64,000 nt of DNA from a virus: positions 1 through 64,000 of IMG/VR virus record IMGVR_UViG_3300046463_000247; one strand, 5' to 3'. The translations under genes were made by a program, and so were the position numbers. Positions 5,162-60,066 of this stretch are shown here, one piece after another; within the stretch, counting starts at the first letter, position 1, and every line of letters begins with the position of its first letter. The notes under the pieces were generated by a model. It saw nothing but the letters and a program-made list of their open reading frames with translations. It was not told the DNA's origin and ran no database searches.

Positions 5162-5880
5162 TCTGCCGTGCCCCCCGGCTGGGCGACCGGCTGCTGCGCG
5201 TTTGCAATTGATTGCAGCGACTCGGCAGACGGCCCGCCGATGGTCGAGACGGTGAAGCCCAGACGGCGTGCGATTTCGTTCACCAGGTCGGCGCGGCGCG
5301 GAAAGTCCTTCAGCAGGCTTGCTTCCCACTGCTTGTAGTCGTTCACGTGCACCTTGAACTTGTACAGGCCGATGTTCAGCACGATATGCTCGCGGCTGAT
5401 GACCTGCTTATTGCTCGCCACCGATCCGCACACCGCCTCGTAGCTGAGGTCCTTCAGGCAGTCCGCGTCAATCTGGCCGCACAGGCAGTCCAGTTCTTCC
5501 TTGCTGAAGCCGGTCGATTCGAGGTCGAAGCCCAGTTCGCCCAGCAGCCGCAGTTCTTCCGACAGCTTCGATTCGTCCCACTTCGCGTTCTCCGACACGC
5601 GGTTATCGGCGAGGCGGAACGCCTTGATCTGCGCGTCGCTCAGGTGGTCCGCCGTGATGGTAGCGACTTCCGTCAGACCCAGTTCCGTGCTGGCGCGGTA
5701 GCGCGTGTGGCCGGTGACGATCACGCCGTCCTTGTCCACCACAATCGGCACGAGGAAGCCGAAGTCCTCAATTGACTTCTTCACGCCCGCCACGGCTTCG
5801 TCGTTCACGCGCGGGTTGTTCCAGTACGGCTTGACCTCGCCCAGCGCGCGATAGACGATTGCGATCTTGTTCTGTTCCAT
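5158..5880 (-). CDS. ParB/Srx-domain protein
   Basis: PYWNNPR..FGFLVPIVVD..IVTGHTR..AFRLADNR. Confidence 0.85.
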   Translation of the reverse strand: MEQNKIAIVYRALGEVKPYWNNPRVNDEAVAGVKKSIEDFGFLVPIVVDKDGVIVTGHTRYRASTELGLTEVATITADHLSDAQIKAFRLADNRVSENAKWDESKLSEELRLLGELGFDLESTGFSKEELDCLCGQIDADCLKDLSYEAVCGSVASNKQVISREHIVLNIGLYKFKVHVNDYKQWEASLLKDFPRRADLVNEIARRLGFTVSTIGGPSAESLQSIANAQQPVAQPGGTAE

Positions 5881-5895
5881 GCGTTACCCCTTGAG

Positions 5896-7092
5896 TTATT
5901 CGAGCCCGGCCATCGTGGCGCGGATGTTGTCGTCCTGCAAAATCGGGTTCTCCAGGCGAATCTTGCCGATGCCCGCGCCCGTGTAGAAGCCCACCTTCTT
6001 CGCCTTGTCATGCCAGCTTCCGCCCGACACGTAGCGGTCGAGCAGCGCATAGTACAGCGGCTTGCTGGTCTCGACCGGCGTCACTTCCAGACTCAGGCCC
6101 AGCAGGAATTCGAGCACGTCGCGGTTCACGAACAGGTCGGTCGTGCGCAGCGGCTGGAACACCTTGTAGACCATCAGGTTGTTCGGCAGCGTGTATAGCT
6201 GGTGATCAATCCGGTACTTCGACCACTTCTGCGAGGTCGGGTAGTCCTCGGCCTTCAGGAACTTGCCGGTCGTCATGATGTCGTTGCCCAGCACCACGTC
6301 GGCGAGGTCGGCGGCAGCGATCCACTCGGCCCCGATGCCCTCGGCGAAGCGCGCGACCACGCGGTTGCACATGCCCATCAGCACGTTGCTGTAGTCCGTC
6401 ATTTCAATATGGGCCAGCGTCTCGGCCAGCAGCGATTGCAGGCCCTCGTCGTCGCCCGGGAGCGGCAGGAAGTGGTACTCCAGACCCAGTTGCTCGGCGT
6501 ACTTGCGCGCGTAGCTGGGATCGAAGTCTTCCTCGGTGCGGCCCACGCAGACGCACACCTGGTCGATGCCCGCGTGCTTGAGCGCCAGCGCGGTTAGCAG
6601 ACCGTCGGTGCCGCCGCTGATGGTCGTGACGACCTTCTTGCCGCGCAGGAACTCGGCAGCGCCCACCAGCCGTTTCAGAAGCTCCGATGCGGCCTCGTCC
6701 ATCGGCATCTTCCAGTTCGGTTCGGGCTTGATGATGTCGAGCACGTAGCGGCGCAGGCCCTTGGCCGACAGGTGGTAGCCGACGCCTTCCTTGCAGCGCA
6801 CGATGTCCTTGATCTTGAAGCCGTTCGCCTGGACGAATGCCTTGATCGACGTGTAGGACTGGGAGAAGTGTAGTTCGCCTTCCCGGTGCACGTAGTACAG
6901 CGGGATCATGCCGGGGGCGGACTGGTACAGGTAGCAGGCGCGCGGCCCGCCGTATGCCTTGAAGGCGACGCCGCCAATCGGGGCGATCAGGCCCGCGCCG
7001 AAGTTGCGTTGCTCGCGGATCGCGGAGTCGTGCTCTTCGTAGTGGAAGGACTGCGGGTCAGAAACCGACCACGACTGAACGGTTTTTAGCAT
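5896..7092 (-). CDS. asparagine synthase-like PP-loop ATPase/amide ligase
   Basis: Degenerate AsnB N-domain (PLYY...FSQS), PP-loop ISGGTDG, DPSYARKYAEQLGLEYH. Confidence 0.7.
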   Translation of the reverse strand: MLKTVQSWSVSDPQSFHYEEHDSAIREQRNFGAGLIAPIGGVAFKAYGGPRACYLYQSAPGMIPLYYVHREGELHFSQSYTSIKAFVQANGFKIKDIVRCKEGVGYHLSAKGLRRYVLDIIKPEPNWKMPMDEAASELLKRLVGAAEFLRGKKVVTTISGGTDGLLTALALKHAGIDQVCVCVGRTEEDFDPSYARKYAEQLGLEYHFLPLPGDDEGLQSLLAETLAHIEMTDYSNVLMGMCNRVVARFAEGIGAEWIAAADLADVVLGNDIMTTGKFLKAEDYPTSQKWSKYRIDHQLYTLPNNLMVYKVFQPLRTTDLFVNRDVLEFLLGLSLEVTPVETSKPLYYALLDRYVSGGSWHDKAKKVGFYTGAGIGKIRLENPILQDDNIRATMAGLE

Positions 7093-7122
7093 GTCTGGCT
7101 TCGTAAAGTGTAAAGGTGCCGA

Positions 7123-7151: not shown

Positions 7152-7175
7152 CTTTTTGCAATTGATTGCAGCGGG

Positions 7176-10081: not shown

Positions 10082-10728
10082 AAGACGCTCGGGCGTGACT
10101 CCGAGAGCGCAGGATTCAAACCGGCCTCGCTTGAACCGGGAGGCTTTGCCCTACTTAGGGAGCATCTAGCGGCACAGGCCCTTGCGGGTTACTGGGAGGG
10201 TAAATGGTCTCTTTTTCGGACTGGCTGGTCTGTGGCGTACCCGACATACGAGAGGATTTAGCGCCCTTGTCGCTCTATTCCCCGATCTTTCACGGGCTCT
10301 CACGGCAGTTAGTCCCTGCTGTCACCAGCAGTCACCGCGCTGGCACACCTGCATCGCCACCAGATACCCGACTTACGGGCGTCGTCTTACAGCAGCAGTC
10401 CACCGGTCATAACGCGAGGGATTCAGGGTCGAAGGAACCCCTACCCATATTCTGAAATGAACGCCGTCCGATTTCAGGCGGGCCTCTATTGGTCCCCGGA
10501 CGGCTCTACCCCTGAACTGGACTGCTGGTGTAAGACCTCAGTGAACCGGACAGCACGGGCGCGCAATGCGATGTCCCCGTGACAGGTATTGAGTGGACCC
10601 CGCTGTACGGGGCTGAACACGGGTCGTTATCTGCCACGAAAACTCCCGTCCCACTGGGTTCCTATCCGTTTCACTGAAGCCTTGCAATTGATTGCAAACC
10701 TCAGCCAGCGGGCCGGAGCCCGCCGCAC
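10082..10728 (-). ncRNA. putative large structured non-coding RNA
   Basis: No credible gene; 19-bp stem 10384-10402/10518-10536 with one mismatch, nested helices, minus-strand GNRA loops (GCAA, GUGA); ends approximate. Confidence 0.6.
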
Positions 10729-10734: not shown

Positions 10735-11538
10735 TTACTTTACTGCCTGCTTCACTTCGATGTCCCACTCGGGGAACAGTTCGGCGATCTTCGTCAGGGC
10801 CGCTTCGAAGCCGAGCGTCTTGACCTGCTCTTCGAACGGGACTTCCGTGCCGCCCGTTGCGCCGCCGATCACGCCTGCGAGGTAACCCGCGCAGATGTTT
10901 TCGAGCGCCACGCTGTCAAATTCGGTGCCGGTCTCGGCCTTGGCCTTCGAGAGCGCCGACTTGATCGTGTTCGCCTGGTCGTTCTTCACAGCGAACTTCA
11001 GGCTCACGTTGTCGCTCGTGGTGGACGACGAGGTTTCGCCCGCTTCACCCGTGACCGTGCCCTTCAGCAGCTTCTGGAGTTCCACGACCGTCAGGCCCTC
11101 AGCCTTGGCGACCATTTCGTCCAGGTTCTCCAGCGTCAGGTGTTCGGCGAGGTCCTTGAGCTTGGTCCAGCCGAGGTGGCTGACCTTCTCCCACGGAATC
11201 TGCTTCACAATCAGGTGATCGTAGATGTCAATCAGGTAGCGCGCCTTGCGCGACTTGAAGCCAAACTTCTCTTCGACATACGCGTCGAACGATTCGAAGC
11301 CTTCGAACCACGAGTTGTCCTGGATCAGCTTGAGCACACCGCCCAGCCGCAGGTACGACACTTCGATGGTCTCGTTCAGCTTCTCAGCCTCGCCGAGAGC
11401 CTTGGGCTTCGACATGGACTGGATTTCGGCGGCAGTGTCAAAGAACAGATCGCCGGTCGCGGTCTTGCCCTTGGATTTGGCCTTGCCGACCACGACGGTC
11501 TCGGGCTTCTGTTCTTGCACTTGCTCTGCTGCGCTCAT
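10735..11538 (-). CDS. helical hypothetical protein, possibly DNA-binding
   Basis: 267 aa; strong codon bias; own promoter; FESFDAYVEEKFGFKSRKARYLI HTH-like segment. Confidence 0.75.
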   Translation of the reverse strand: MSAAEQVQEQKPETVVVGKAKSKGKTATGDLFFDTAAEIQSMSKPKALGEAEKLNETIEVSYLRLGGVLKLIQDNSWFEGFESFDAYVEEKFGFKSRKARYLIDIYDHLIVKQIPWEKVSHLGWTKLKDLAEHLTLENLDEMVAKAEGLTVVELQKLLKGTVTGEAGETSSSTTSDNVSLKFAVKNDQANTIKSALSKAKAETGTEFDSVALENICAGYLAGVIGGATGGTEVPFEEQVKTLGFEAALTKIAELFPEWDIEVKQAVK

Positions 11539-11604: not shown

Positions 11605-11633
11605 ATAATAAGCACCCGTGCCCGGTTTGTCAA
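11605..11633 (-). promoter_or_regulatory. sigma70-type promoter
   Basis: TTGACA-N17-TATTAT. Confidence 0.75.
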
Positions 11634-11658
11634 ACAGTCTTTGCAATCAATTGCAAAT

Positions 11659-12884: not shown

Positions 12885-12905
12885 GGTGTGCAATCAATTG
12901 CAAAG

Positions 12906-14179: not shown

Positions 14180-15342
14180 TTGGCCGCGCCCTCCGCTTCG
14201 ATCAGGAACGCCTGCCCTGCGGTTGCGTCGAGCACCATCTTTTGCAGGAACAGCGCGAACTCGCGCTCGGCCTGATAGGTGTCCTTGAGCGGCACCAGGG
14301 TCGGGAAGTTGCCCTGCCCTTCCAGCACCCAGCCGGTGCCCTTGTCGGCCTTGCGCAGCAGGTTCAGCGCCTTCAGGTGGCTCGACACGCTGTTCCACGA
14401 GTCGGACTCGCCCACCGACAGGTCGCCGTGCGGGGTCATACACAGCTTGTATTCGAACGACATCTGGCGCACCGCGACCTTGGCCTTCTTGATCACCGCA
14501 CTGGTGTCCTTGAAGATCGGCAGGTCCGGGTGAATCTTCGCGTCGATCACGTTCTTCCCGTAAAGTCTCACCGTCAGCGACGACAGGAACTTCATCGTGT
14601 TGCCGCCCGGCATCGTCTCAGGGTCGCCGAACATCACGCCGATCTTCATCCGAATCTGGTTCACGAGGATCACAGCCGGGAAGTGCCCCTTGCGGGCCTG
14701 CACCGACTGCGCGATGACGATCTTGTTGCACATGCGCTTGATCAGGATCGAAGCGGTGCCCACGTCGAACTTCTCCGCGCTCTGCTCCAGTTCCTTCGTG
14801 CTCGTGATCACCGCCAGCGAATCGAGAATGACCAGCGCCACGTCGTCGGCGTACAGGAACGCGTCCATCGCGTCCACCGCTTCCTCGCCGTAGGCGGGCT
14901 TGACCAGGATCAGGGCGTCCACGTCCACGCCGAACATCGCCGCCCACTCGGGGTCGAACGTGCCTTCTAGGTCGATCCAGACCACCTTGTTGCAGTGCGC
15001 CGGGCCGCGCTGGGCGTTGGCGACCGCACAGTAGCAGATGTTGGTCTTGCCCGATGATTCAGGGCCGAAGACGATGGAGTAGCGCCCCTTCGGGAAGCCA
15101 CCACCGGTTGCATAGTCGAACTCCCAGACGCCGGTCGGGATGCGCTCGACACGCGGGATACTGGAGCCCGCCATCACGAGGCCCGGGCCTTTTTGCTTCG
15201 CCAGTTGCGCCATCACTGCCGCGCTCTCACCCTCAGTGCCGAACTTCGGTTTTGCAATTGATTGCACGGCGGCAGAGACGCCGGTTACTGCTGTTGCGGG
15301 AGACGGATGCGTGCCCGCCTCTCCATTGACCTTGAGTGCCAT
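14176..15342 (-). CDS. recA: RecA-family recombinase
   Basis: GGGFPKGR..FGPESSGKT, LDSLA, VNQIRMKIGVMFGDPETMPGG. Confidence 0.95.
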   Translation of the reverse strand: MALKVNGEAGTHPSPATAVTGVSAAVQSIAKPKFGTEGESAAVMAQLAKQKGPGLVMAGSSIPRVERIPTGVWEFDYATGGGFPKGRYSIVFGPESSGKTNICYCAVANAQRGPAHCNKVVWIDLEGTFDPEWAAMFGVDVDALILVKPAYGEEAVDAMDAFLYADDVALVILDSLAVITSTKELEQSAEKFDVGTASILIKRMCNKIVIAQSVQARKGHFPAVILVNQIRMKIGVMFGDPETMPGGNTMKFLSSLTVRLYGKNVIDAKIHPDLPIFKDTSAVIKKAKVAVRQMSFEYKLCMTPHGDLSVGESDSWNSVSSHLKALNLLRKADKGTGWVLEGQGNFPTLVPLKDTYQAEREFALFLQKMVLDATAGQAFLIEAEGAAK

Positions 15343-20234: not shown

Positions 20235-20271
20235 ACAGTTTAACAAGGAGCCTTTGCAATTGATTGCAATT

Positions 20272-22118: not shown

Positions 22119-22171
22119 AAGCCCCGTTGACGGTATGCCGTGCAATCAATTGCAACTTGCACGGTGCCAGG

Positions 22172-23389
22172 TCAACCTCCAAGTTTTTTGTAGAACGCCG
22201 CCAGCGCAGCCGCTTTCTGCTCTTCACTGGGTTTATCGCTCTCGGTGGAATCAGGGGCCTTTGGCGACTCGTTCGCCGATTTTGGCCCTATATCTGAATC
22301 ATAATTCACAATTTTAGGTTTGTCAAACACTTTCGGCACGGTATATGCGGTCTTCGCCACAGACGGTGCGGGTTGCTGCGGAACGCTTTTTGCAATCAAT
22401 TGCAACAGCGAGTCGTAATGCGACAGGATGAACCCGATCAGCGGTTGCACGGGGGCCGAGCCCAGCGCCTTGTCGGTCTTGGCCTTGTAGGCGAACGCGG
22501 ACCAGTGTTGCAGGGCGTGGTCGAGCACGGCTATCGGGTCGTGGTTCAGCCCAACCAGCTTGACGAATAGCTGGCCCATCTGCCCGATCTCTTTGCCGGT
22601 GGGCTCTTTCCAGCCGTCTTCGTACAGGACCGACATGCGCTTCTTCCACAGCAGCAGCATCCCGTTCTTGCCCTTCAGCCCGGCAGCGGGCGCGGTCGCC
22701 TTCTGCTCCTGCTGGGCGCTCAGGGCCGCGACGACGGCTGCGGAACTCGTGAGTTTCGGTTTCGGAGGCAATTCGCTTTCCCCTTTTTCAATTTTTTCCA
22801 GGTTTACTTCTTCACCGCTTTCAGGGGTTGGGTTTTCGTTTTTCGTTTTCCCTGAAAACGGGTTTCCAGTTTTTAAAAATTCCTTGGCGTCGTCAGACGC
22901 TAAAGATTTTTCTTTGTTGTTAACAGTGTCTGTACCCAGTGTGTTACGTAGTAAGGATTCAGTTGAAACACCCGAATCCAATCCGTTGTTTCGACCGGAT
23001 GGAACCTGTTGTTTGGCCGGGGTCTGGGCGTGTTCCAACTCCGTAAGACGCTCCACGTCGAGCCAGATATGGACCTTGGGCGAACCGCCATGCTTGTATC
23101 TTGCGGTCTGAATCAGCCCTTTTTGCTCCAGTTTCGGCAAAACGCGACGCAGCATCATGTCGGTGACGCGGGCTTCTTCCAGCCACTCGGGACGGGACTT
23201 GGCGAGCCACATCTTGCCGTCTCGATAGACGGTCAGCTTGCTCTTGCCGGTCTTGGGATTCGGGAGTGCCCAGAAGCAGATTCTGGAGAGCACGAGCCCT
23301 GCAACGACATCCCCATCCATCAGGTCAACGTAGGATAGGACAATGGACGGTCCAGCGCTCTGGACGTTCTTAGCGGTCGAAACTTTCAC
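22172..23389 (-). CDS. replication initiator protein (N-terminal wHTH)
   Basis: AGLVLSRICFW..WLAKSRPEWLEE..LEQKGLI; GTG 23389 after TAAGGAG; internal AT-rich tract. Confidence 0.7.
   Translation of the reverse strand: MKVSTAKNVQSAGPSIVLSYVDLMDGDVVAGLVLSRICFWALPNPKTGKSKLTVYRDGKMWLAKSRPEWLEEARVTDMMLRRVLPKLEQKGLIQTARYKHGGSPKVHIWLDVERLTELEHAQTPAKQQVPSGRNNGLDSGVSTESLLRNTLGTDTVNNKEKSLASDDAKEFLKTGNPFSGKTKNENPTPESGEEVNLEKIEKGESELPPKPKLTSSAAVVAALSAQQEQKATAPAAGLKGKNGMLLLWKKRMSVLYEDGWKEPTGKEIGQMGQLFVKLVGLNHDPIAVLDHALQHWSAFAYKAKTDKALGSAPVQPLIGFILSHYDSLLQLIAKSVPQQPAPSVAKTAYTVPKVFDKPKIVNYDSDIGPKSANESPKAPDSTESDKPSEEQKAAALAAFYKKLGG
22298..22326 (-). promoter_or_regulatory. internal sigma70-type promoter for loader/dnaB
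   Basis: TTGACA-N17-TATGAT inside the 3' end of the initiator gene. Confidence 0.65.
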
Positions 23390-23439
23390 GGTACTCCTTA
23401 CCGGGCGGTCAGCGGGTTCAGCGCTGTGCAATCAATTGC

Positions 23440-23466
23440 AAAAAAGAGCGGGCCGAAGCCCGCCCT
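23440..23466 (-). terminator. intrinsic terminator
   Basis: AGGGCGGGC-TTCG-GCCCGCTCTTTTTT, abutting a 14-bp repeat copy. Confidence 0.8.
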
Positions 23467-25134: not shown

Positions 25135-25183
25135 TTTCTTTACCTTTTGGTCCTAGTTGTTATGAACTGCAATTGATTGCAGC

Positions 25184-27839: not shown

Positions 27840-27872
27840 GGGTGTCGCACTCCTTGCGTTACCGATAGACAC

Positions 27873-27900: not shown

Positions 27901-27905
27901 ACAGC

Positions 27906-28556
27906 CTACTTTGCAATTGATTGCAATCCGGGCGGTTCGCTCGCCGACAGCCCCATCGACGCTAGAGCCTGATCGAACAGTTCCTTGTTCTTGCCATACC
28001 ACTGCTGCCACGCGAGGATTACTGCGCCTCGCTCGCGGGCTTCGGAGAGGTTGAATCGGTCGATGTCAGCGACTTCAGAGAGCGTAACGCTGGTCGCGGC
28101 GTCAACATCGACGGGTCGGCTTCCGGCCACGCTGCCGTCGCCGGGGTCAAGCGAGAGGTCGTGGAGGTACACGAAGCCAGCAGGAATGCGGCAAGCAACA
28201 TCAGCGTGAGGCGTAACATAGTCGGTCACCTTCTGTTTCTGGAGTTGGACGGTTCGGGCCTGGGCCTTCGCGAGGTCGGCTTTAAGCTGGAGATTGACGG
28301 TCTTCGACTGGACAAGCTGCGCGAACTGGGCCTGTGCTGCCTGGGTGCGCTCCTGCGCGGCCTGCGCTTCATACTTGGTGGTGGTATCGGCGACGCCCCG
28401 CGCGTACGCGGCGTTCAACTCGTGGTGGCCGTACCACAGCAGCGCCCCAAACACGGCCAGCGTGCCCAGTGCATACCACACCCAGCGCGGCACCCGCAGC
28501 AGGTTGGCGAATACGTCCTTGAACAGGGCGACGAAGATTTCGAGCACGAATGGCAT
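27906..28556 (-). CDS. i-spanin (Rz-like)
   Basis: N-terminal TM, coiled coil, C..P.GFV..H; downstream of endolysin. Confidence 0.8.
   Translation of the reverse strand: MPFVLEIFVALFKDVFANLLRVPRWVWYALGTLAVFGALLWYGHHELNAAYARGVADTTTKYEAQAAQERTQAAQAQFAQLVQSKTVNLQLKADLAKAQARTVQLQKQKVTDYVTPHADVACRIPAGFVYLHDLSLDPGDGSVAGSRPVDVDAATSVTLSEVADIDRFNLSEARERGAVILAWQQWYGKNKELFDQALASMGLSASEPPGLQSIAK
28019..28219 (-). CDS. o-spanin lipoprotein (Rz1-like), embedded in Rz
   Basis: Signal peptide with lipobox LASC, Pro-rich mature part, alternative frame inside Rz. Confidence 0.8.
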   Translation of the reverse strand: MLRLTLMLLAAFLLASCTSTTSRLTPATAAWPEADPSMLTPRPALRSLKSLTSTDSTSPKPASEAQ

Positions 28557-28640
28557 GGTTTGGGCCTCCAAATAAAAAGCCCCGCGATTGTGCGGGGCCT
28601 CACCTGCCGGGTCAAGCGTTTTGCAATTGATTGCAGACGC

Positions 28641-30292: not shown

Positions 30293-30350
30293 CAGGTCTG
30301 GTCCCCGGTTGCAATTGATTGCAACGCAAGCGCGGTTTTGGATGCCGCGA

Positions 30351-36565: not shown

Positions 36566-36593
36566 GCTTACCCCTGTGCAATTGATTGCAAAA

Positions 36594-43233: not shown

Positions 43234-43480
43234 CCTGTACTCCCTGTTCAGCGGCTGCGCGGGCCGTTGCAATCAATTGCAAAGCCAGCACGTCCTTCGT
43301 CTTGTCCAAAATCTCGGATGCCATCACGCCCCGCTGCACGAACTTCCGCCAGTCGAGCCCGCGCTGTTCCGCCCACTGCCTGCCGCCTGAGACACATACC
43401 TTCTGCCCGCCGATGCGCACCATGCGCATGTGCGTCGTGGTGACCAGCACGTCTTCGAGCCCATCCTGAGCCAGTGCCAT
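43217..43480 (-). CDS. small tail assembly protein
   Basis: C..G.RQW..RGLDW..F...G. Confidence 0.7.
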   Translation of the reverse strand: MALAQDGLEDVLVTTTHMRMVRIGGQKVCVSGGRQWAEQRGLDWRKFVQRGVMASEILDKTKDVLALQLIATARAAAEQGVQDGMRV

Positions 43481-46542: not shown

Positions 46543-49500
46543 TACTTGATCCCCAGCATGGTTTTCAGCGTCGGCACGTCGCGTTGCAGGTGCATGAATA
46601 CGATGTCCTTGCCGTCAGAGCCCGACATCGCCTGCGGCACGCGCTTGCGCTCGTCCACCAGCACGAAGCGGGACCCGCCATCGCCCTTGCCACCCTTCGG
46701 TGCGCCGCCGCCCGCGTCCGTGCCTTTTGCAATTGATTGCAAACCGGAAGGCATGCCACCGTCCGCGAATTTGTTGATCGAAGACGACATGCGGTTCCTG
46801 ATCGAGCCCGTCTGGCCGGAATTTAGCGCATAAAGCAGCGGCAGGTGTTCCTTCGTCGCCTTCTCGTTGACGATAAACTCGTTGTTCGCGACCATCGCCG
46901 GGATGCTGTCCGACCGGCCCGTTCCGGGTCCGCTAATCAGGCCGTGGTTGAGCCGCTTGAAGTCGTCCATGCCGAAGCCGTCCGCGAACTTGCGCACCGG
47001 CACGACGCCGCGACGACCCTGTGACGGCAGGCCACCATCGGCGAGCATCATCATCGCCATCATCGCCATCTGGCCGATCATCTGCCCCCACTGCGCGCCC
47101 TGCTTGCCGCCAATTGCCCCACCAATCGCGCCCCCGGCCATGCCGCCCATCGAGCCCGCCATACCGCCGCCACCGCCAGCCCCACCGTCCGAAAACATGC
47201 TGTTGATGCTGTCGAACATCCCGCCCAAGCTGTCCTGCGTCTGGCCCAGCACACCGCTCAGGCCGGTCGTCAGCGCGTTGCCCATCGAGTCAATCCCGAA
47301 CCCGCCGTTCGACGCGGTGTTGCCGAGGTCGGTGAACGTCGTATTCAGGCCGGTTTCGAGGCTGCTCTGGAACGTCGAGAAGCCGTCACCGCCGCCCAGC
47401 CCGAACAGCGCGGAGCCGCCCGTGGAGGTCGAGCTATCGAGGTTGCCGCCGCCCGCGTCGAAGCCGTAGTCATTGCTCGCGGTGTTCCCCATGTTGAACA
47501 GGGAGCCAAGGCCCATCGCAGCCCCGCCACGCTTGCCGAAGTTGCCCATGAGGGTGTTGACAGCCCCCATCAGTCCCGGACCGCCCTGCGTGCTGCCGTT
47601 GGTCGTGAAGGTCTGCTTGGTCGCGTCCGCCGAGCGCACCCACATCGCGTTGCTCGCGTCCTCACCCAGTTGCCTGCCGCTCTTGCCGCCCAGCCCTTCA
47701 GCCAGCTTGTCGAAGATCGAATTGCCCTCGCCGCCCGTCTGATCCACGATCCACGAGGTGATCTTCTGCGACAGGTCCTTGGCGATAACCTGGTTGATCG
47801 AGTTGACGAAGCTCAGCGCCGCGCCCCGGAAAGCCTCACCAATCGACTTCGAGTGCGACATCACGTCGTAGATGCCCTGCGTCAGCGCCTCGGAGAAGTT
47901 CGTGCGGATCGAATCGCCCAGCGTGTGGTAGGCCGACGCAAGCTGGAGAATCTGGTTCTGGTACGAAGCGGCCTTGGTGCGCGCGTCGTCGTACTCCTTC
48001 TCCATGCCCAGCGCCTTGTACTGCTCGGCCTGCTCCTGCTCAACCGCCATCAGCTTGCGGACGTTCTCGATCTCGGCGGTGATCAGTGCGTTGTCGGCGT
48101 TGGCGGCACTGATGTCCGTCAGCGCGCCGCGCGAGTTCGCGAGCGCCACCTGGGCGCGGGCGTTCTCCAGCAGGGTCGCTTGCAGGTTGCCCTGGCGCGT
48201 CGTGGCGTCGTTCAGTTGCTGCATCGCCAGCACGTCGGCCTTGCGTGCGTATTCGGCGTCCAGCAGTTCCTTCGCGCCCTTCACGCTGTCCAGCTTCTTG
48301 TGCAGGTCCTCGTACTGCTGCGCGAGCGCGGCCTGAGACCCGGCCAGCTTCTGGTCGGTCTCCTGCATCGCCTGGAACTTGACGTTGGCGACTTCCTTGT
48401 CCAGCGCTTCCTGCTCCTGCGCGCGGGCAATCGCTTCACGCGACTCGTCGGCTGCGGCCTGGGCGTTGATCTGCTTGATATGGTCGCGCTGCGCCTGAAT
48501 CTGGTTGTCGATGCCGACGCGCTCGCTGCCGGTCTTGGCCGCACCCTTGTCGATCTGGAGCGCCTTGATCTGCGCATTCGCCACCGCGACTTCCTGCGCG
48601 GCGTTCGCCTTGATCACCTCGGCACGCTTGTTGTAATACGTGTCGAGGTTCACCAGACCCTGCTGGTAGCCATACTGGTCCGCATCGAGCGCCGCCTGGT
48701 TGGCGATCTTCGTCAGCGCGGCGGTGTTCTGCGCGGCCTCCACAATCGCCTGCGCGCGAGCCTTGGCAATCGCCCGGCCTTCGTTCAGTGCGGACTCGCC
48801 GCCCGCCTTCAGTGCGGCCTGCGCTTCCTTCTCGTGCTGCTTGGCCTGCCCCATCGCGCCATTCAGCGACGACGTGATGTCCACGCCCGCCGTCTGGGCC
48901 ATCGCCTTCAGGGCCTCGCCAGCCGCCTGGAATTTCTTCAGTTCCTCTGGCGACGACACGGTGTCGGCCAGCTTCTCGAACTCCAGCAGCATCGCGTTCA
49001 GCAGCGTCTTCGACTGGGCCGAGCCGTCCTTGACGAACGCCTGCGCGGAGACAATCACGTCCGCCGCCTCGGAGAACTTCTGGGCGATGCCGGTGGTGGC
49101 CTGCGACACGTCGATGCCTGCCGCCTGCGCGGCCTCAGCGAAGTTCTGCCATGCCTTGCTGGCCTCAACCATCGCCTTGGTCTGCGCAGCGGAGCCATCC
49201 AGAATCACCTGAATCTGCTTGCGCTGGGCGTCCGACAGGTCGGCGTTCATCAGGGAGTCGCGCTGCTCCTTGATCGAAGCGTTGGTGTCCTTGATCTGCT
49301 TCTGGAGGTCAGCCTGTTGCTGCTTGAGCGTCAGCACGTCCGACGCCGCCGACGAGCGCGCCTGCGGGGTGGCCTTCTCGTCGTTGGCGATCAGGTTCTT
49401 GTCGCTGATCTGGCGCGCGAGGTCCAGGTTCTGCTTCTGCTGGGCGGCGAGGTCGGTGTACTTCTGCTTCAGCGTGTCAATCGCCTTCTGCACGTCGCCC

Positions 49501-51423: not shown

Positions 51424-51749
51424 GCGTCGGGCACCGACAGCTTGTAAATCTTCTGGATTGCAATCAATTGCACGGTGCCGGGCAGGCGCTTGATCACGTC
51501 GAGATCGTCTTCCGCGTCGGTTCCCATCTTGATCACCTGTGCGATGAAGTCCGGCGCGGCCAGCAGGAACTGCGTGTAGTTCGGCTCCTTCTTCTGCGCT
51601 TCGGCGTACAGCGAGACGAACGCGTGCTGGTGGTTCATCATCAGTTCGACAATCTGCAACAGGGACAGTGGGTGCAGGTCGAGCGGGACGCCGGGTGCAA
51701 CTTCGACCGTCTCGGGTTTGGCGAGCAGGTCGGCAATCTTGATACCCAT
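51273..51749 (-). CDS. tail assembly chaperone (G)
   Basis: Between tail tube and tape measure. Confidence 0.75.
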   Translation of the reverse strand: MGIKIADLLAKPETVEVAPGVPLDLHPLSLLQIVELMMNHQHAFVSLYAEAQKKEPNYTQFLLAAPDFIAQVIKMGTDAEDDLDVIKRLPGTVQLIAIQKIYKLSVPDAKKLQELLSEATAALRQLGKNASARIEQQPQAATQEAAPLTPSTEPLLSA

Positions 51750-52952: not shown

Positions 52953-53387
52953 TCAGACCAGTTGAACCGGCACGGACCACCGTTGCAGGTACAGGAGCAC
53001 CGTGTCTTTCTTAGCCGCCTGGGCTTCCACCAGGAACTTCCAGTGCGCCGCCACCGGGGAGCGGCCCTCGCGCATCGCGGCGCGTACGTCGTCCAGCAGG
53101 GCAATCGCGGACGCCTTGTTGTTGTGCCCGGCAAGCTGTTCGATCTTCGTCATGATCACGAGACCGAACACCGCTTCGCACGAGATACCGCGCTGCTCCT
53201 TCGTGTCCACCGACCGCATGCCCTCGTACAGGTAGCAGACCTGCGGAAACGACGTGCCCTTGATCTTGTTCAGCGCTTCGTCGTCATCGAGCACGAACAG
53301 CACGCGCCCCTTCAGAATTGCAATTGATTGCAAACGGGCGTCGATGTCGTCCAGGCACTTCTGGACCAGGTTCTCATTCACTCTCAT
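52953..53387 (-). CDS. tail terminator-like protein
   Basis: Position and size (144 aa). Confidence 0.6.
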   Translation of the reverse strand: MRVNENLVQKCLDDIDARLQSIAILKGRVLFVLDDDEALNKIKGTSFPQVCYLYEGMRSVDTKEQRGISCEAVFGLVIMTKIEQLAGHNNKASAIALLDDVRAAMREGRSPVAAHWKFLVEAQAAKKDTVLLYLQRWSVPVQLV

Positions 53388-53825: not shown

Positions 53826-54722
53826 TCACATTACCGGACGCAGACAGAAGCCCAGCGAGTCGCGCGTGTACGGTGCTGCCACCGCGAGCGCATGCTGGCC
53901 GCTGGCCTGGTAGTTCTTGATCGTGCCGCTCTGCTCGGCCTGCGACAGCCCTGCGGCCATCACGGCGGGTACATAGCCCAGCACTGCCTCCACCAGCCAG
54001 TCCGGCGCGAGGTCGGTCGTCTGGGGCACGGGCGTCGGTTCTGCAATTGATTGCAGCGGCGTGTCGGACGTGCTGATCAGCCGGTCGTACGGGTAGGCGC
54101 TGTCACCGAACAGCGTCACGCCAGGCGAGCCGCCCGCATTGTCGCCCGTGGTGCCCACCAGACCTGTGTCCTGATCGCCGGTAGGCGGCGTGCCACCCGC
54201 CCCCGTACCGCTGCCATCATCCGTAGTGGGAGGCGGCGAATCGGTCGGAGGCGGGTCGCCAGAAGGGTCGCCCGACGGGTCAGGTTGCGGTGTCGGCTCG
54301 GGGATCGGTTCGAAGCCCGCGTTGAACGTCACGCGGATAAAGCGCTCGTTGTACTTCTTGCGCGGGATCGAAACGACGCCTTTCACATAGTCGATATGGA
54401 AGTCCAGCACGGGCACGGGGATCGTGCACCGGTTGTAGTCCGAACCCCAATACACTGCCTCGCTGCCCGGCTTGAGCAGACCAGAACGAAGCCGGAGCCG
54501 GTAGAGACCGGCAGGCTGAACCCCGCTGAAGCTGTCGGAGTCCAGGTAAAACACGTCTTCAAAGTCTTTCGACTGAAGCGTTGAGTCAATCAGCGTGCCG
54601 ATGCGGAGTTGGGCGGCGTCGATGGCGTTCGTGATTGCTTCGTCCACCTCGGGCGCTGCAAGCTCTGAAGAGATTTGCATCCGCGTGCGCACCTGCGCGA
54701 CCGTCACAATACGTGCTGTCAT
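53826..54722 (-). CDS. head-tail adaptor with Pro/Gly-rich insert
   Basis: Position; V.F.AGF followed by a ~100-aa low-complexity insert. Confidence 0.65.
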   Translation of the reverse strand: MTARIVTVAQVRTRMQISSELAAPEVDEAITNAIDAAQLRIGTLIDSTLQSKDFEDVFYLDSDSFSGVQPAGLYRLRLRSGLLKPGSEAVYWGSDYNRCTIPVPVLDFHIDYVKGVVSIPRKKYNERFIRVTFNAGFEPIPEPTPQPDPSGDPSGDPPPTDSPPPTTDDGSGTGAGGTPPTGDQDTGLVGTTGDNAGGSPGVTLFGDSAYPYDRLISTSDTPLQSIAEPTPVPQTTDLAPDWLVEAVLGYVPAVMAAGLSQAEQSGTIKNYQASGQHALAVAAPYTRDSLGFCLRPVM

Positions 54723-54739: not shown

Positions 54740-55138
54740 TTAGACTGCTTCGCCTTCGTCCATGATCTCGATGCCCTTCTTCGCGGCACCCTCCACAGCG
54801 GTCTGGTCGTCCGCGTCGGTCACTTCCGGTGCCGGGGGCACTTCAGCGGTGACGACTTCGACCGGGCCGTTGACCTTCGCCTCGACGGCTTCCTGCGTCG
54901 GCAGGGCTACCTTGGTCGGCGTCGCCCACTCGCGGTCGCCGTTGCTGTCCACGCGGCCCAGCAGGTCGAGCGCGGTGGCCTGGTCGAACGCGTAGCGCAC
55001 GCCAGCGGTGTACAGCTTGTTGCCCAGGTTCAGGCGCTTGGCCCGCGCGAGCACCAGTTCGATGCGAGCCGGGGCTGCTGCCTGTGCCTCTTCCTGCTTG
55101 CCCTTTGCGGCGTCTTCATTCTTCACGGTTACACCCAT
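54740..55138 (-). CDS. hypothetical (head-associated) protein
   Basis: 132 aa with GAGGTG RBS. Confidence 0.7.
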   Translation of the reverse strand: MGVTVKNEDAAKGKQEEAQAAAPARIELVLARAKRLNLGNKLYTAGVRYAFDQATALDLLGRVDSNGDREWATPTKVALPTQEAVEAKVNGPVEVVTAEVPPAPEVTDADDQTAVEGAAKKGIEIMDEGEAV

Positions 55139-58254: not shown

Positions 58255-58300
58255 GACTAGACTCCGTGCAATTGATTGCAGCGGAATCTAGCAGAGAGGA

Positions 58301-58459
58301 TCACTTCGGAACAACGATTTGCTTCGCTTTATCGGCGTCAAAGCTGAGTTTCGCGGCCAGTGCGCGGGTGGCGTCCGGGTCAGGCGGGGGCACGAGCTTC
58401 AGCAGCACCTCGTCGGCTACGTCGTCCTTGCCGTTCTTCGCTCGAAAAGTGGGCTTCAC
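58301..58459 (-). CDS. small hypothetical protein (52 aa)
   Basis: GTG overlaps the upstream TGA; hand-translated MKPTFRAKNGKDDVADEVLLKLVPP.. Confidence 0.5.
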   Translation of the reverse strand: MKPTFRAKNGKDDVADEVLLKLVPPPDPDATRALAAKLSFDADKAKQIVVPK

Positions 58460-60066
58460 AGAATCTCCTTGTACTGCTTGACCGCCGCCTTATCGGACAG
58501 GTCCAGCGTCAGTTCGAGGTCCACGCCGTCCAGCAGAAGCTGGTACAACGGTCGCCCGTCGATCTCGATGGCAAGCGTCATCAGGTCCGCGAGGCCGCGC
58601 ACGCTCGACTGGTTCAGCACCGCCTCCACGAACGCAAGCTGCACCTGGTTCAGCTTTCCTGCAATTGATTGCAACCGGCCACCCGGCTCCATGCCGTCCA
58701 GAATCTGAGCACGCAGCCCGTACCAGTCCGACAGTGACGGCGCGTAGCCCATCGTCGTGTAGGCGGCAATCGACGCGGCGCTGGTCGCGCTGACGACGAT
58801 CTGGTTGAGCCCGCCTGACTGCGCGACGTGCAGGATGCCCGCCTCTACGCGCTTGAAGAAAGGCAGGATCGTGTCCGGCGCGAGCTTCTGGAACTCGATG
58901 TATGACTTGTAGAGCGTGCCGCTGTACGGGTCGATCACGATGGAGGCACCGACCGTGCCGTCGCCGAGCTTGTGCTTGGTCGTGACGGTGATGTCGCCGC
59001 CCGGCGCGATCTTGATCGGCGTCTTGTTGATCAGCGACCCTTCGAGGATGTCGAGCGGCTGCACTCCGGCCACCTCAGCGACGACCGCGACCGGCGACAG
59101 CGGCAGGTACGCATTCCAGTGATCCAGTTGCGCGGTGTCCACCTTCACGCCCAGTTCGGTGAAGGCGTCGGCGTCCACGTGCTGCTTCGGAATCACCTGC
59201 TCTTCTGCCGTGACGACCGGCGCTTGCAGCTTTGGGGCCTGCCCGGTGCGGATCAGGATGGTCCGGCAGTTCGGGTGAAACGGCGGGATCATCAGCCCTT
59301 CCTCGGTCAGTTGCGCCGCCGACATGTCGCGGTAACGCCCCATTGAGGTCTTGTCCTGCTTCGGCCATGGCTGGGCCGCTTTTACCGCGTCCGGTGTATC
59401 GAGCGACAGGATGTGGACGATGGATGCCCGCGCGTCGGCGACGCGGAAGCGCTTGCCATTGATCGCGCGACAAAACTCGGACGTGCGTCCGTCCATGACG
59501 GCGGATAGCTCGTACTCTTCGATGCCCAGCAGTTCGGCTTCTGCGGTGAAGCCCCACGTAGCCAGACGGCTACTATGGAGCGACGAAGCCAGCTTGATCG
59601 TGTCATTCCCTTCCTCTGCGAACGAAACGAAGTCCTTGACGAAGCGTTCGGCCTTCTTGACGGTGCTGTTGGCCTCGACCCAGTTTGCAATTGATTGCAA
59701 CGCGGCCTTCACGACGGCCTGCGAGCCGTTGTACTTCAAGCCCTGCGTGAAGTTGTCGGCGACGGTGTTCAGCAGCGTGTCGAACTTGCCGACCCCGACA
59801 AAGGTCTTGCTCGCGTCGTGCGCGGCGTTCCCGGCCCCATAGACGGCCATCGCCCGCAGCAGGTACTTGATGTACTCGCGGTTTTTCGTCGCCACCGGGG
59901 TCATGTCGATAGCGTGCGCTTCGGTGTAGGCCCCGGCGAGGTCGTTGGCCTTCAGCCTGGCCGCGATAGCCTGGTAGTACGACGCTGCCAGCGGTTGCCA
60001 CGTGCGGCGCAGCCGTTGGGTAAGCGCCGTCTCCAGCGCCAGATAGGTTCGGAAGTCCTGTGCCAT
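58456..60066 (-). CDS. minor head protein (MuF/SPP1 gp7-like) with C-terminal extension
   Basis: D.RTS.FC..NGK and PPFHPNCRT; follows portal. Confidence 0.8.
   Translation of the reverse strand: MAQDFRTYLALETALTQRLRRTWQPLAASYYQAIAARLKANDLAGAYTEAHAIDMTPVATKNREYIKYLLRAMAVYGAGNAAHDASKTFVGVGKFDTLLNTVADNFTQGLKYNGSQAVVKAALQSIANWVEANSTVKKAERFVKDFVSFAEEGNDTIKLASSLHSSRLATWGFTAEAELLGIEEYELSAVMDGRTSEFCRAINGKRFRVADARASIVHILSLDTPDAVKAAQPWPKQDKTSMGRYRDMSAAQLTEEGLMIPPFHPNCRTILIRTGQAPKLQAPVVTAEEQVIPKQHVDADAFTELGVKVDTAQLDHWNAYLPLSPVAVVAEVAGVQPLDILEGSLINKTPIKIAPGGDITVTTKHKLGDGTVGASIVIDPYSGTLYKSYIEFQKLAPDTILPFFKRVEAGILHVAQSGGLNQIVVSATSAASIAAYTTMGYAPSLSDWYGLRAQILDGMEPGGRLQSIAGKLNQVQLAFVEAVLNQSSVRGLADLMTLAIEIDGRPLYQLLLDGVDLELTLDLSDKAAVKQYKEIL

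What the first reader, a model, noticed from the sequence alone, without database searches (positions are those of the whole stretch)
5203..59699. Twelve copies of the motif are written into proteins as (L/V)Q(S/L)IA using rare codons
Copies at 5203, 15253, 22391, 27912, 31775, 43268, 46728, 51459, 53319, 54042, 58660 and 59686 lie inside unrelated genes (ParB, RecA, initiator, spanin, tail proteins, tape measure, chaperone, MuF). All use the single frame that avoids Cys and stop codons, with A/T-ending codons (CAA, TCA or TTG, ATT, GCA) that are atypical for these genes. This indicates selection on the DNA sequence strong enough to shape protein sequence. It argues for a density-dependent function (roadblock, compaction, packaging or ejection) rather than simple promoter control.
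Basis: partly seen in the sequence, partly recalled or inferred. Interest (0 to 1): 0.8.

Follow-up and report, generated by a model that had tools for sequence, protein, structure and literature searches.

The report
Phage-wide DNA motif written into genes
A 14-base near-palindrome occurs about 50 times, evenly spaced, in this 98-kb phage-plasmid genome and is kept letter-perfect even inside genes, where it forces the peptide Q(S/L)IA in rare codons; it is probably the binding site of the phage's own ParB/KorB-like DNA-binding protein, and I found no published description of it.

Summary
All 12 coordinates hold the exact 14-mer TGCAAT[TG/CA]ATTGCA inside genes, in the one frame that reads x-Q-(S/L)-I-A, using codons that make up 4-18% of their synonymous families.

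The window is part of a 98-kb Delepquintavirus-like phage, a relative of the phagemid DLP5. It has 50 exact copies where about 0.2 are expected. Its relatives (39-62% GC) carry 20-47 copies each.

- In 260 orthologue comparisons, 66 keep the exact DNA, 142 have another peptide and 52 are gapped.
- None keeps the peptide with different codons.

The frame rule is strong but not absolute. Across the clade the split is 91:28:14, and five G000 copies beyond the window use Cys-containing frames.

Sites are spaced more evenly than random in all nine genomes tested (CV 0.44-0.72). Promoter adjacency appears in only three lineages.

The best candidate binder is the universal 267-aa protein encoded at 10735-11538:
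- It has a ParB/Noc/KorB-type DNA-binding fold.
- It is predicted to form a homodimer.
- A conserved cognate palindrome lies upstream of its own gene, even in relatives that lack the array.
- Changes in its putative recognition helix coincide with motif variants.

What the array does is not established. Earlier notes from this scan on the same genome had already flagged the array; none had been followed up.

The parts
1085..1098 (-). Motif copy, probably genic (ORF 677-1201, PHROG of unknown function); reads SVLQSIAIT.
   Evidence: start codon uncertain
5203..5216 (-). Genic copy in the ParB_N protein gene 5158-5880, 45 nt before the stop; reads ESLQSIANA
   Evidence: orthologues are gapped here
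15253..15266 (-). Genic copy in the variable N-terminal linker of the RecA/UvsX-like gene 14176-15342; reads AAVQSIAKP
   Evidence: start corrected to the ATG at 15342
22391..22404 (-). Genic copy in the replication initiator gene 22172-23389; reads SLLQLIAKS. This slot (relative position 0.81-0.91) is conserved in 6 genomes.
27912..27925 (-). Genic copy forming the last codons (PGLQSIAK-stop) of the spanin-like gene 27906-28556. It lies in a C-terminal extension absent from orthologues, and a strong promoter follows 11 nt downstream.
31775..31788 (-). Genic copy in the middle of the 777-aa tail protein gene 30398-32731; reads SKLQLIATA
43268..43281 (-). Genic copy near the 3' end of the tail assembly chaperone-like gene 43217-43480; reads LALQLIATA
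46728..46741 (-). Genic copy in the tape measure gene 46542-51041 (relative position 0.96); reads SGLQSIAKG. The same slot is used in G006 and G003.
51459..51472 (-). Genic copy in the tail protein gene 51273-51749; reads GTVQLIAIQ
53319..53332 (-). Genic copy in the 142-aa protein gene 52953-53381; reads ARLQSIAIL. The exact 15 nt are conserved in G001, G006, DLP5 and G009 although the flanking residues differ.
54042..54055 (-). Genic copy in the 298-aa protein gene 53826-54722; reads TPLQSIAEP. It lies in a stretch absent from all orthologues.
58660..58673 (-). Genic copy in the MuF-like gene 58456-60066; reads GRLQSIAGK. It is lineage-specific: orthologues have unrelated peptides here.
59686..59699 (-). 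Genic copy in the MuF-like gene; reads AALQSIANW. The motif is present at the aligned position in 6 orthologues, as QSIA or QLIA.
40079..40092 (-). One-mismatch copy (TGCAACTGATTGCA) inside the 1126-aa gene 38337-41717
11642..11655 (.). Intergenic copy 8 nt upstream of a consensus promoter (TTGACA-17-TATTAT) and 104 nt upstream of the candidate binder gene. This is the most conserved slot, found in 8 genomes.
10735..11538 (-). Candidate cognate binder: a 267-aa protein universal in the clade, with a ParB/Noc/KorB-type HTH DNA-binding fold at residues 43-163 and a predicted homodimer. It has no ParB_N domain.
2156..2169 (.). Intergenic copy 7 nt upstream of a TTGACA promoter
7157..7170 (.). Intergenic copy 65 nt upstream of the start of gene 5896-7092
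10683..10696 (.). Intergenic copy inside the 650-nt gene-free gap downstream of the candidate binder gene
12889..12902 (.). Intergenic copy 26 nt upstream of the RuvC-like gene
20255..20268 (.). Intergenic copy 20 nt upstream of a TTGACA promoter
22141..22154 (.). Intergenic copy just downstream of the initiator gene
23427..23440 (.). Intergenic copy 38 nt upstream of the initiator start, directly after a terminator-like hairpin and T run
25168..25181 (.). Intergenic copy 34 nt upstream of the start of gene 24820-25134
28622..28635 (.). Intergenic copy 6 nt upstream of a TTGACC promoter
30310..30323 (.). Intergenic copy 45 nt upstream of a gene start
36577..36590 (.). Intergenic copy 12 nt upstream of a start codon
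55189..55202 (.). Intergenic copy after a T run and 51 nt upstream of gene 54740-55138. This slot is conserved in 4 genomes.
58267..58280 (.). Intergenic copy 13 nt upstream of the prohead protease start. The slot and spacing (11-13 nt) are conserved in 4 genomes.
62124..62137 (.). Intergenic copy 142 nt upstream of the portal gene. This slot is conserved in 5 genomes.

Best explanation
The twelve genic copies (probably thirteen) belong to a genome-wide array of one DNA word, TGCAAT-[TG or CA]-ATTGCA. The word is usually extended by one symmetric flanking base on each side. Selection holds the array in place at the DNA level.

Shown:
- The word is kept letter-perfect in intergenic DNA and in genes.
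- Copies are spaced more evenly than chance allows.
- Many copies sit in slots conserved across phages whose DNA otherwise no longer aligns, while other copies turn over.
- Inside genes, the word mostly occupies the one phase whose translation, (L/V)Q(S/L)IA, avoids Cys and stop codons.
- Genic copies sit in poorly conserved stretches, small insertions or C-terminal extensions of proteins. The cost to the protein is therefore minimised, at the price of rare codons.

Inferred: the word is the operator of a phage-encoded homodimer. The best candidate is the universal 267-aa protein encoded at 10735-11538. Its central domain has the fold of the ParB/Noc/KorB DNA-binding domain, but it lacks the ParB N-terminal CTPase domain, and the genome has no ParA. 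A binder that cannot slide away from its loading site would need many sites to occupy a whole genome. That would explain selection for an even array that reaches into genes.

Speculative: what this occupancy does in a plasmid-prophage. Possibilities include genome-wide silencing or insulation of the one-directional transcription units, and organisation or segregation of the episome.
For: Over-representation:
- 28 copies in the window and 50 in the genome, against about 0.2 expected.
- Relatives carry 20-47 copies, and DLP5, DLP3 and Summit carry about 25 exact plus about 10 near copies.

Selection on the DNA:
- 0 of 260 orthologue comparisons keep the peptide with other codons; 66 keep the exact word.
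- Peptide census in G000: 15 through the motif, 1 otherwise, about 0.85 expected.
- Rare codons are used.

Frame bias: 91:28:14, chi-square p = 3e-17.

Placement: genic sites lie in poorly conserved parts of their proteins (mean percentile 0.36, p = 2e-5).

Even spacing: CV 0.44-0.72 against about 0.95 in all 9 genomes.

Conserved slots are listed. Of 93 genic sites with at least one orthologue, 38 are shared with another genome.

A phage-encoded, co-evolving binder:
- The flanking base is lineage-specific and symmetric.
- Sister lineages use variants of the motif.

Candidate binder:
- AF2 model, pLDDT 81.
- VIA-align gives Z 9.6 with 2.4 A rmsd over 108 residues to Spo0J-parS (4umk), Z 9.2 to ParB-parS (6t1f), Z 7.8 to Noc (7nfu) and Z 7.1 to KorB-operator (1r71).
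- The homodimer model scores 0.71 against a best control of 0.01. That mark was reached by 20 of 30 proteins solved as pairs and by 1 of 23 solved as single chains. The runs agree in at least 75% of contacts, and partner pLDDT is at least 71.
- A near-consensus palindrome lies 35-160 nt upstream of its gene in about 30 of about 60 distinct related loci, including loci without an array. About 0.01 per locus is expected by chance.
- The helix at residues 97-102 is R-K-A-x-Y-L throughout the TGCAAT class. It changes in the GGCAAT, TCCAAT and centre-variant lineages.
Against: - No binding experiment exists.
- The fold match rests on a helical domain. Foldseek E-values were not significant. The tool warns that Z below about 13 can arise by chance for helical proteins.
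- A profile search against solved structures found nothing.
- The co-variation amounts to perhaps five or six independent events, and it is confounded with phylogeny.
- A subclade of 110-120-kb relatives (L177-L190, L218, L222) has the same RKARYL helix but only 0-2 exact sites per 21 kb. The protein alone therefore does not predict an array.
- G003, G009 and G010 use one orientation of the central dinucleotide almost exclusively (29:1, 21:1, 9:1). A perfectly symmetric dimer does not explain that.
- G003 lacks the site upstream of its orthologue.
Confidence: 0.6

Rival explanations
1. The array is a protein-binding site, but the binder is a different phage protein. One option is the excisionase/MerR-type winged-HTH protein at 15745-16179 (DLP5 gp059, annotated 'transcriptional regulator'). 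Another is the replication initiator at 22172-23389, which carries a conserved internal copy and has copies on both flanks.
For: - The wHTH gene sits in a conserved helicase - wHTH - g19 - RecA block in all eight exact-motif genomes that cover that region.
- It matches PHROG 'transcriptional regulator' at E = 1e-19.
- The initiator gene holds a copy at relative position 0.81-0.91 in six genomes.
- In G000 three copies lie within 1.3 kb around the initiator gene.
Against: - Across 80 RecA-anchored loci, wHTH presence does not predict the motif. L167 and L168 have a strong wHTH hit but use another variant. L198, L209, L212, L192, L241, RcZahn, TM16 and G004 carry motif arrays without a wHTH gene in the slot.
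- The initiator family was not detected in G002, which has 22 copies.
- Origin iterons normally cluster; they do not spread evenly over a genome.
Confidence: 0.15
2. The word is a self-identification tag read by DNA-processing machinery rather than by a regulator. It would work like Chi for a helicase-nuclease or like uptake sequences for DNA import, and mark phage DNA for recombination, replication restart, packaging or protection.
For: - The word is recognised all-or-none: there are 50 exact copies and only 2 one-mismatch copies in G000.
- Spacing is even.
- Frame-biased embedding in genes and placement in poorly conserved residues closely mirror what is published for uptake sequences (PMC2817400).
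- Orientation is strongly biased in G003, G009 and G010.
- The phage encodes its own RecA-like recombinase, a Cas4-like exonuclease, helicases and resolvases.
Against: - The word is near-palindromic and is used in both orientations in most genomes (33:17 in G000).
- Orthologous sites flip orientation.
- It is much longer than known Chi sites.
- The terminase-adjacent small-subunit candidates belong to two unrelated families in genomes that share the same word.
- The conserved copy upstream of the 267-aa gene in genomes without an array looks like an ordinary operator.
Confidence: 0.12
3. The element acts in RNA. Every copy is transcribed in the same sense, and it could form a short hairpin (5-bp stem, 4-nt loop) recognised by an RNA-binding protein or an RNase.
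For: - All genes lie on one strand.
- The symmetric flanking bases would extend a stem.
- Orientation is biased in some genomes.
- Several copies sit 8-14 nt from start codons.
Against: - The stem never shows compensatory changes; the sequence itself is invariant.
- The hairpin would be very weak.
- The two orientations give different loops, yet they interchange at orthologous sites.
- Copies that lie upstream of promoters, or after terminators, may not be transcribed together with the genes they precede.
Confidence: 0.06
4. The genic copies are footprints of a tiny mobile or templated insertion of about 15 bp, not the result of point-mutational convergence under selection.
For: - 52 of 260 orthologue comparisons are gapped at the site.
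- Some G000 copies lie in small insertions or extensions (65459, 54042, 27912).
Against: - Most non-conserved comparisons (142) show ordinary substitutions without indels.
- Nothing is conserved beyond one or two flanking bases, and there are no target duplications.
- The gaps are not of a fixed 5-codon length.
- No element this small is known to move.
Confidence: 0.03

Closest known systems
Stoperators of Cluster A mycobacteriophages (L5, Bxb1)
   Same: There are twenty to thirty or more copies of one 13-bp word spread over a temperate phage genome. Most are not at promoters and some lie in genes. A phage-encoded protein binds them, and the motif co-varies with the binder between lineages (PMC6550527, PMC9283540).
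   Different: Stoperators are asymmetric, are bound by a monomeric immunity repressor, and point with transcription. Here the word is a near-palindrome used in both orientations in most genomes. The candidate binder has a ParB/KorB-type fold and is predicted to dimerise. The same word persists across very divergent phages.
KorB and its OB operators on IncP plasmids (RK2)
   Same: A ParB-family HTH domain binds a 13-bp palindrome present at many dispersed sites on an extrachromosomal replicon, some of them next to promoters. The candidate binder superposes on the KorB DNA-binding domain bound to operator (1r71, Z 7.1). The count of 12 OB sites is from my own knowledge.
   Different: KorB has the ParB N-terminal CTPase domain and works with IncC (ParA) and KorA. 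Here no ParB_N domain is found in the binder and no ParA in the genome. There are about 50 sites, many of them inside genes.
Noc and its NBS sites in Bacillus subtilis
   Same: A 14-bp palindrome is scattered over a whole replicon, including coding regions, and is read by a ParB-fold DNA-binding domain (7nfu, Z 7.8). The count of about 70 NBS sites is from my own knowledge.
   Different: Noc is a chromosomal, CTP-dependent, membrane-tethering protein. The candidate here lacks the CTPase domain and is encoded by a phage.
DNA uptake sequences (USS/DUS) of Pasteurellaceae and Neisseria
   Same: An exact word is hugely over-represented. It is embedded in genes in preferred reading frames, raises the frequency of the peptides it encodes, and sits at poorly conserved residues (PMC2817400). 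The same patterns were measured here.
   Different: In uptake sequences the preferred frames correlate with preferred codons; here the favoured frame uses the rarest codons. Uptake sequences serve the competence machinery of a cell, not a phage genome.
C1 operators of phage-plasmid P1
   Same: Many operators for one phage protein are scattered round a plasmid-prophage genome (from my own knowledge; not checked here).
   Different: P1 operators are 17-bp asymmetric sites at promoters. No array inside genes and no even spacing is described for P1.

Membership tests
Stoperator system (Cluster A mycobacteriophages) | Asymmetric site of about 13 bp | tested here: not met
   The site is a 6-2-6 inverted repeat; only the central dinucleotide is asymmetric.
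Stoperator system (Cluster A mycobacteriophages) | Sites predominantly in one orientation relative to transcription | tested here: inconclusive
   On the coding strand the split is 33:17 in G000, 11:11 in G002 and 11:9 in G008, but 29:1 in G003 and 21:1 in G009.
Stoperator system (Cluster A mycobacteriophages) | Many dispersed sites, most of them not at promoters | tested here: met
   There are 50 sites. Eleven lie next to one of 25 strong promoters in G000; none does in six other genomes.
Stoperator system (Cluster A mycobacteriophages) | Binding blocks transcription elongation | not testable with these tools
ParABS partition system | Binder carries the ParB N-terminal (CTPase) domain | tested here: not met
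   The 267-aa protein has no Pfam hit at E <= 0.01. The model has only about 40 mostly disordered residues before the HTH domain. The ParB_N proteins of G000 (3596-5161 and 5158-5880) belong to families that are not universal among motif-bearing genomes.
ParABS partition system | ParA-type ATPase partner | tested here: not met
   PF13614 and PF01656 found nothing in six-frame searches of G000, while all 14 control genomes matched.
ParABS partition system | ParB-type HTH DNA-binding domain reading a 14-16-bp palindrome as a dimer | tested here: inconclusive
   There is a fold match to ParB/Spo0J-parS complexes (Z 9.6 and 9.2) and a predicted homodimer (0.71 against 0.01). Foldseek E-values were not significant, and a profile search against solved structures found nothing.
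KorB-OB global regulon | Dispersed palindromic operators on an extrachromosomal replicon, some at promoters | tested here: met
   The relative DLP5 is maintained as a phagemid (PMC5834331).
KorB-OB global regulon | CTP-dependent clamp and KorA/IncC partners | tested here: not met
   No ParB_N domain in the binder and no ParA in the genome. KorA was not searched for.
DNA uptake sequences | Over-represented exact word with a reading-frame bias, enriched encoded peptides and placement at poorly conserved residues | tested here: met
DNA uptake sequences | Recognition by a competence DNA-uptake receptor of the host | not testable with these tools
   The host is unknown. The element lies in a phage, and sister phages use variant words, which argues against a host receptor.
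Chi sites | Short (5-8 nt), asymmetric, host-specific word with polar orientation | tested here: not met
   The word is 14 bp and near-palindromic. It is used in both orientations and is shared by phages of 39-62% GC.

The most novel reading that the evidence does not exclude
A ParB/KorB-fold protein that has lost the CTPase clamp domain occupies a whole 100-kb phage-plasmid genome through about 50 evenly spaced, letter-perfect sites. The sites are pushed into coding sequence at the cost of rare codons and altered residues. This would be a site-array form of phage chromatin that replaces ParB spreading. It would serve genome-wide silencing or insulation, or ParA-independent maintenance of the episome. 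The array would have expanded from a single autoregulatory operator that is still visible in relatives lacking the array.
Probability: 0.3. Interest if true: 0.8.

Novelty: new variant of a known kind. Interest (0 to 1): 0.66.

Why it matters
Dispersed binding-site arrays are known in only a handful of systems: stoperators, KorB operators, Noc sites and uptake sequences. In those systems they have revealed new ways of controlling or tagging whole replicons.

This array has several useful properties:
- It is present in cultured, published phages (DLP5, DLP3, Summit, RcZahn), but I found no mention of it in their papers or in a literal search of the full-text library.
- It has a concrete candidate binder.
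- It has a clear evolutionary signature of DNA-level selection overriding codon and residue choice.

It is directly testable in Stenotrophomonas phage DLP5, which is maintained as a phagemid.

It also gives a clean natural example of how far a non-coding function can shape coding sequence. It is a caution for annotation and codon-optimisation work as well: synonymous recoding of these phages would destroy the array.

Tried and rejected
**ParB_N proteins as the binder.** Rejected. G000 lacks the terminase-adjacent ParB-like family found in DLP5, G001, G006, RcZahn and TM16. The family of gene 5158-5880 occurs only in G000, G002 and G003.

**Winged-HTH protein 15745-16179 as the binder.** Its phyletic pattern fitted among 12 genomes but failed across 80 RecA-anchored loci.

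**General promoter element.** Rejected. Adjacency to TTGAC promoters occurs only in G000, G001 and G006, and the spacing varies from 4 to 20 nt.

**Protein-level selection for the peptide.** Rejected. The same DNA occurs in two other frames and in intergenic DNA, and the peptide never occurs with other codons at orthologous sites.

**My early impression that the exact word is universal in the clade.** This was ascertainment bias, because I had found the relatives by searching for the word itself. Loci found through RecA show variant words.

**Searches that gave nothing clear**
- Foldseek against the PDB gave no significant match.
- A profile search of solved structures gave nothing.
- The protein atlas gave only weak leads below 0.9, including clusters named DUF3102 and 'ParB HTH'.
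- A megablast of 24 kb against the phage collection found only a 67-bp match.

**Gene model.** My home-made gene model misplaced at least one start (recA). The genic/intergenic counts in the other genomes therefore carry a small error.

Full report
**What is there.** 'The motif' is the 14-mer TGCAATTGATTGCA and its reverse complement TGCAATCAATTGCA. It is a 6-2-6 inverted repeat whose only asymmetry is the central TG/CA. All twelve coordinates in the finding carry it exactly.

The window has 28 exact copies and one copy with one mismatch. A dinucleotide-preserving shuffle expects 0.22 matches even when two mismatches are allowed.

The window is the first 64 kb of a complete 98,045-bp viral contig with a 60-bp terminal repeat and 62.4% GC. 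The contig carries 50 exact copies. A codon-usage gene model finds 133 genes, all on the minus strand.

**The observation.** 1085 is a probable thirteenth. Every one lies in the phase xTG-CAA-(TCA|TTG)-ATT-GCA, which reads (L/V)Q(S/L)IA.

My automatic model put 15253 upstream of recA. Alignment with ten orthologues shows the true start is the ATG at 15342 (MALKV...).

The codons are rare in G000: CAA is 13% of Gln, TCA 4% of Ser, TTG 4% of Leu, ATT 18% of Ile and GCA 14% of Ala. The joint probability is about 1.4e-4.

The rule is not absolute. Beyond the window, three G000 copies read A-I-(N/D)-C and two read C-N-Q-L.

**Relatives.** A scan of IMG/VR for the exact word found a set of contigs of about 95-100 kb that carry it many times. 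Whole-record counts are 39, 22, 30, 47, 23 (in 62 kb), 20 (in 51 kb) and 22, with zero hits for the reversed control word.

These genomes range from 39% to 62% GC. At most about 10 kb of any of them aligns to G000, at about 68% identity.

The portal protein links the group to several cultured phages:
- Stenotrophomonas phages DLP5, DLP3 and Summit (genus Delepquintavirus)
- Rhodobacter phage RcZahn
- Rhizobium phage RHph_TM16

DLP5 is temperate and is maintained as a phagemid (PMC5834331). DLP5, Summit and DLP3 each carry about 25 exact and about 10 one-mismatch copies.

The DLP3 and RcZahn papers do not mention the repeat. The DLP5 genome announcement was seen only as an abstract. A literal search of the full-text library for the word returns nothing.

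I aligned reciprocal-best orthologues for every genic site in nine genomes. In the Q(S/L)IA phase there were 260 site-orthologue comparisons:

| Outcome at the aligned position | Count |
|---|---|
| Exact DNA word | 66 |
| Different peptide | 142 |
| Gap | 52 |
| Same peptide, other codons | 0 |

So the stated refutation condition is not met. Four examples:
- The 142-aa tail protein has the identical 15 nt in five genomes, while the six residues on either side differ almost completely.
- MuF has the word at one aligned position in six genomes, as QSIA in some and QLIA in others.
- The dikinase reads A-I-(N/D)-C in four genomes. Motif-free orthologues there have S, L, Y or A instead of Cys.
- The second MuF site is unique to G000 and replaces unrelated residues.

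A peptide census gives 15 Q(S/L)IA through the word and 1 otherwise in G000, against 0.85 expected from composition. Motif-free TM16 has 1 against 0.8 expected.

Phase use across the clade is 91:28:14 (chi-square p = 3e-17). Genic sites lie in the less conserved parts of their own proteins (mean percentile 0.36, Wilcoxon p = 2e-5). Of 93 genic sites with an orthologue, 38 are shared with at least one other genome, so there is both long-term retention and turnover.

These patterns match what was published for DNA uptake sequences (PMC2817400), with one difference. Here the favoured frame uses the rarest codons, because that frame places the A/T letters at third positions and avoids Cys and stop codons.

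**Distribution.**
- About 60% of G000 copies are intergenic, although only about 8% of the genome is.
- Across eight genomes, 46% of copies end within 100 nt upstream of a start codon, against 13% for random positions.
- Spacing is more even than random in all nine genomes tested: CV 0.44-0.72 against about 0.95. The result also holds against a null model that keeps the genic/intergenic split.
- Many slots are ancient: upstream of the 267-aa gene (8 genomes), inside the initiator gene at relative position 0.81-0.91 (6), 11-13 nt before the protease start codon (4), in MuF (7) and at the end of the tape measure gene (3).

In G000, 11 of 25 strong coding-strand promoters (TTGAC[ACT]-N16-18-TAnnnT) have a copy 5-20 nt upstream. 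The figures are 5 of 14 in G001 and 3 of 12 in G006, and none in the six other genomes. Several copies directly follow terminator-like hairpins with T runs.

**What reads it.** The flanking base is lineage-specific and symmetric: T...A in G000, G006 and G007; C...G in G001, G003 and DLP5; G...C in G002 and G009. The centre is always a pyrimidine-purine step. It is almost always CA/TG and rarely TA or CG, and only one spacing occurs.

Eighty loci fetched through the RecA-like gene, not through the word, show that the wider clade uses sister words:
- GGCAAT...ATTGCC
- TCCAAT...
- TGCAGA-YR-TCTGCA
- TGCAAT-TA-ATTGCA, up to 18 copies in 21 kb
- TGCAA-N4-TTGCA with other centres (TM16, L200, L214)

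This corrected my early impression of universality, which came from finding the relatives by the word itself. It also points to a phage-encoded, co-evolving dimer rather than a host factor.

Two candidates failed:
- No ParB_N family is shared by all motif-bearing genomes.
- The winged-HTH protein next to recA fitted the first 12 genomes but not the 80 loci.

The best candidate is the 267-aa protein encoded at 10735-11538. It is present in every genome examined and in about 270 database proteins, with no Pfam family. Its closest homologue, at 75% identity, lies on a 98.8-kb Burkholderia ubonensis contig. The evidence:
- Its AlphaFold model (pLDDT 81) has a central domain, residues 43-163, that superposes on the DNA-binding domains of Spo0J-parS (4umk, Z 9.6, 2.4 A over 108 residues), ParB-parS (6t1f, Z 9.2), Noc (7nfu, Z 7.8) and KorB-operator (1r71, Z 7.1).
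- Caveats on that match: Foldseek E-values were not significant, a sequence profile finds no solved relative, and the tool warns that helical models can reach such Z values by chance.
- A two-copy complex prediction scored 0.71 against a best control of 0.01. That mark was reached by 20 of 30 proteins solved as pairs and 1 of 23 solved as single chains. Runs agree in at least 75% of contacts, and pLDDT is at least 71. The model supports dimerisation; it does not show it.
- The most widely conserved copy of the word lies 65-110 nt upstream of this gene.
- In about 30 of about 60 distinct related loci, including loci with no array, the best palindrome in the 260 nt upstream matches the consensus at 10 or more of 12 positions, against about 0.01 expected per locus. 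This looks like an ancestral autoregulatory operator.
- The putative recognition helix is R-K-A-x-Y-L throughout the TGCAAT class. It reads R-T-I-R-Y-M in the GGCAAT lineage and S-K-A-F-H-L in the TCCAAT lineage. It ends in Y-Q in three lineages with altered centres and in Y-W in the TA-centre lineage. These are few events and are confounded with phylogeny.

The protein has no ParB N-terminal domain, and G000 has no ParA-type ATPase. This is therefore not a ParABS system.

**How it most likely works.**
- Shown: the DNA word itself is under strong purifying selection. It is kept evenly spread. Where intergenic space is lacking it is written into genes in the cheapest frame and in the most tolerant parts of proteins.
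- Inferred, at about 0.6: it is the operator of the homodimeric ParB/KorB-fold protein. Because that protein lacks the clamp domain that lets ParB, KorB and Noc spread from one site, occupying the whole genome requires many sites. That would explain selection for an even array.
- Speculative: the pay-off. Candidates are silencing or insulation of a one-directional transcription map in the plasmid-prophage state, or ParA-independent organisation and maintenance of the episome.

**Unexplained.**
- G003, G009 and G010 use a single orientation of the centre almost exclusively.
- A 110-120-kb subclade has the same helix but only 0-2 exact sites per 21 kb.

**Novelty and verdict.** The kind of system, a dispersed operator array, is known. 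So is frame-biased embedding of a DNA word in genes. What appears to be new, as far as the searched literature shows, is this array itself, its presence in published phages, its candidate CTPase-less ParB-fold binder, and the clarity of the evidence that DNA selection overrides coding.

Earlier first-stage notes of this scan on the same genome flagged the array as a candidate operator/stoperator system. None had been followed up.

Noticed in passing
window 10082-10728: A gene-free gap of about 650 nt lies directly downstream of the candidate binder gene and contains motif copy 10683. ARAGORN finds no tRNA there. DLP5 has four tRNAs and small ORFs at the syntenic place. It could be an origin, a centromere-like region or an ncRNA.
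   Followed up: partly
window, minus strand, e.g. 2130-2149, 11610-11634, 27870-27901, 28585-28616: There is a family of 25 strong sigma-70-like promoters (gtTTGACa-N17-TAnAAT) on the coding strand of G000 and none on the antisense strand. The extended -35 context GTTTGACAATCC recurs 8 times.
   Followed up: partly
G009 (L137-L142), whole record: A second, unrelated repeated word, AAATATATTTTCAA, occurs about 15-23 times in G009 in addition to the 14-mer.
   Followed up: no
L215, L196, L211, G004 (L150-L154): More distant relatives carry their own recurrent palindromes: GCGACC-CCGG-GGTCGC 5 times in L215, ATAGTAGTACTACTAT 3 times in L196, and GGGCCC-TTTC-GGGCCC 11 times in G004 (these look like terminator hairpins). 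G004 (38.6% GC, genes on both strands) still has 11 copies of the TGCAAT word.
   Followed up: no
window 58456-60066; DLP5 1892-3232 (L157): The DLP5 orthologue of the MuF-like protein carries a ParB_N signature (DGHHR) where G000 has a lineage-specific motif copy (GRLQSIAGK). MuF-ParB fusions would be packaged in the head.
   Followed up: no
window 3596-5880: Two adjacent ParB_N proteins are present, one fused to a methyltransferase-like domain. They are shared only with G002 and G003 and look like a separate DNA-modification or IbrAB-like module unrelated to the array.
   Followed up: partly
G000 95856-96152 (L156:11856-12152): A 98-aa protein is a truncated paralogue of the N-terminal half of the winged-HTH protein encoded at 15745-16179.
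   Followed up: partly
P0001: The closest homologue of the candidate binder (75% identity) lies on a 98.8-kb contig of Burkholderia ubonensis. This suggests a resident phage-plasmid and that the host of this phage is a Burkholderia.
   Followed up: no
window 14176-15342: The RecA/UvsX-like gene starts at the ATG at 15342, not at the GTG at 15216 that a codon-score model prefers. The low-complexity N-terminal linker misleads start prediction.
   Followed up: yes
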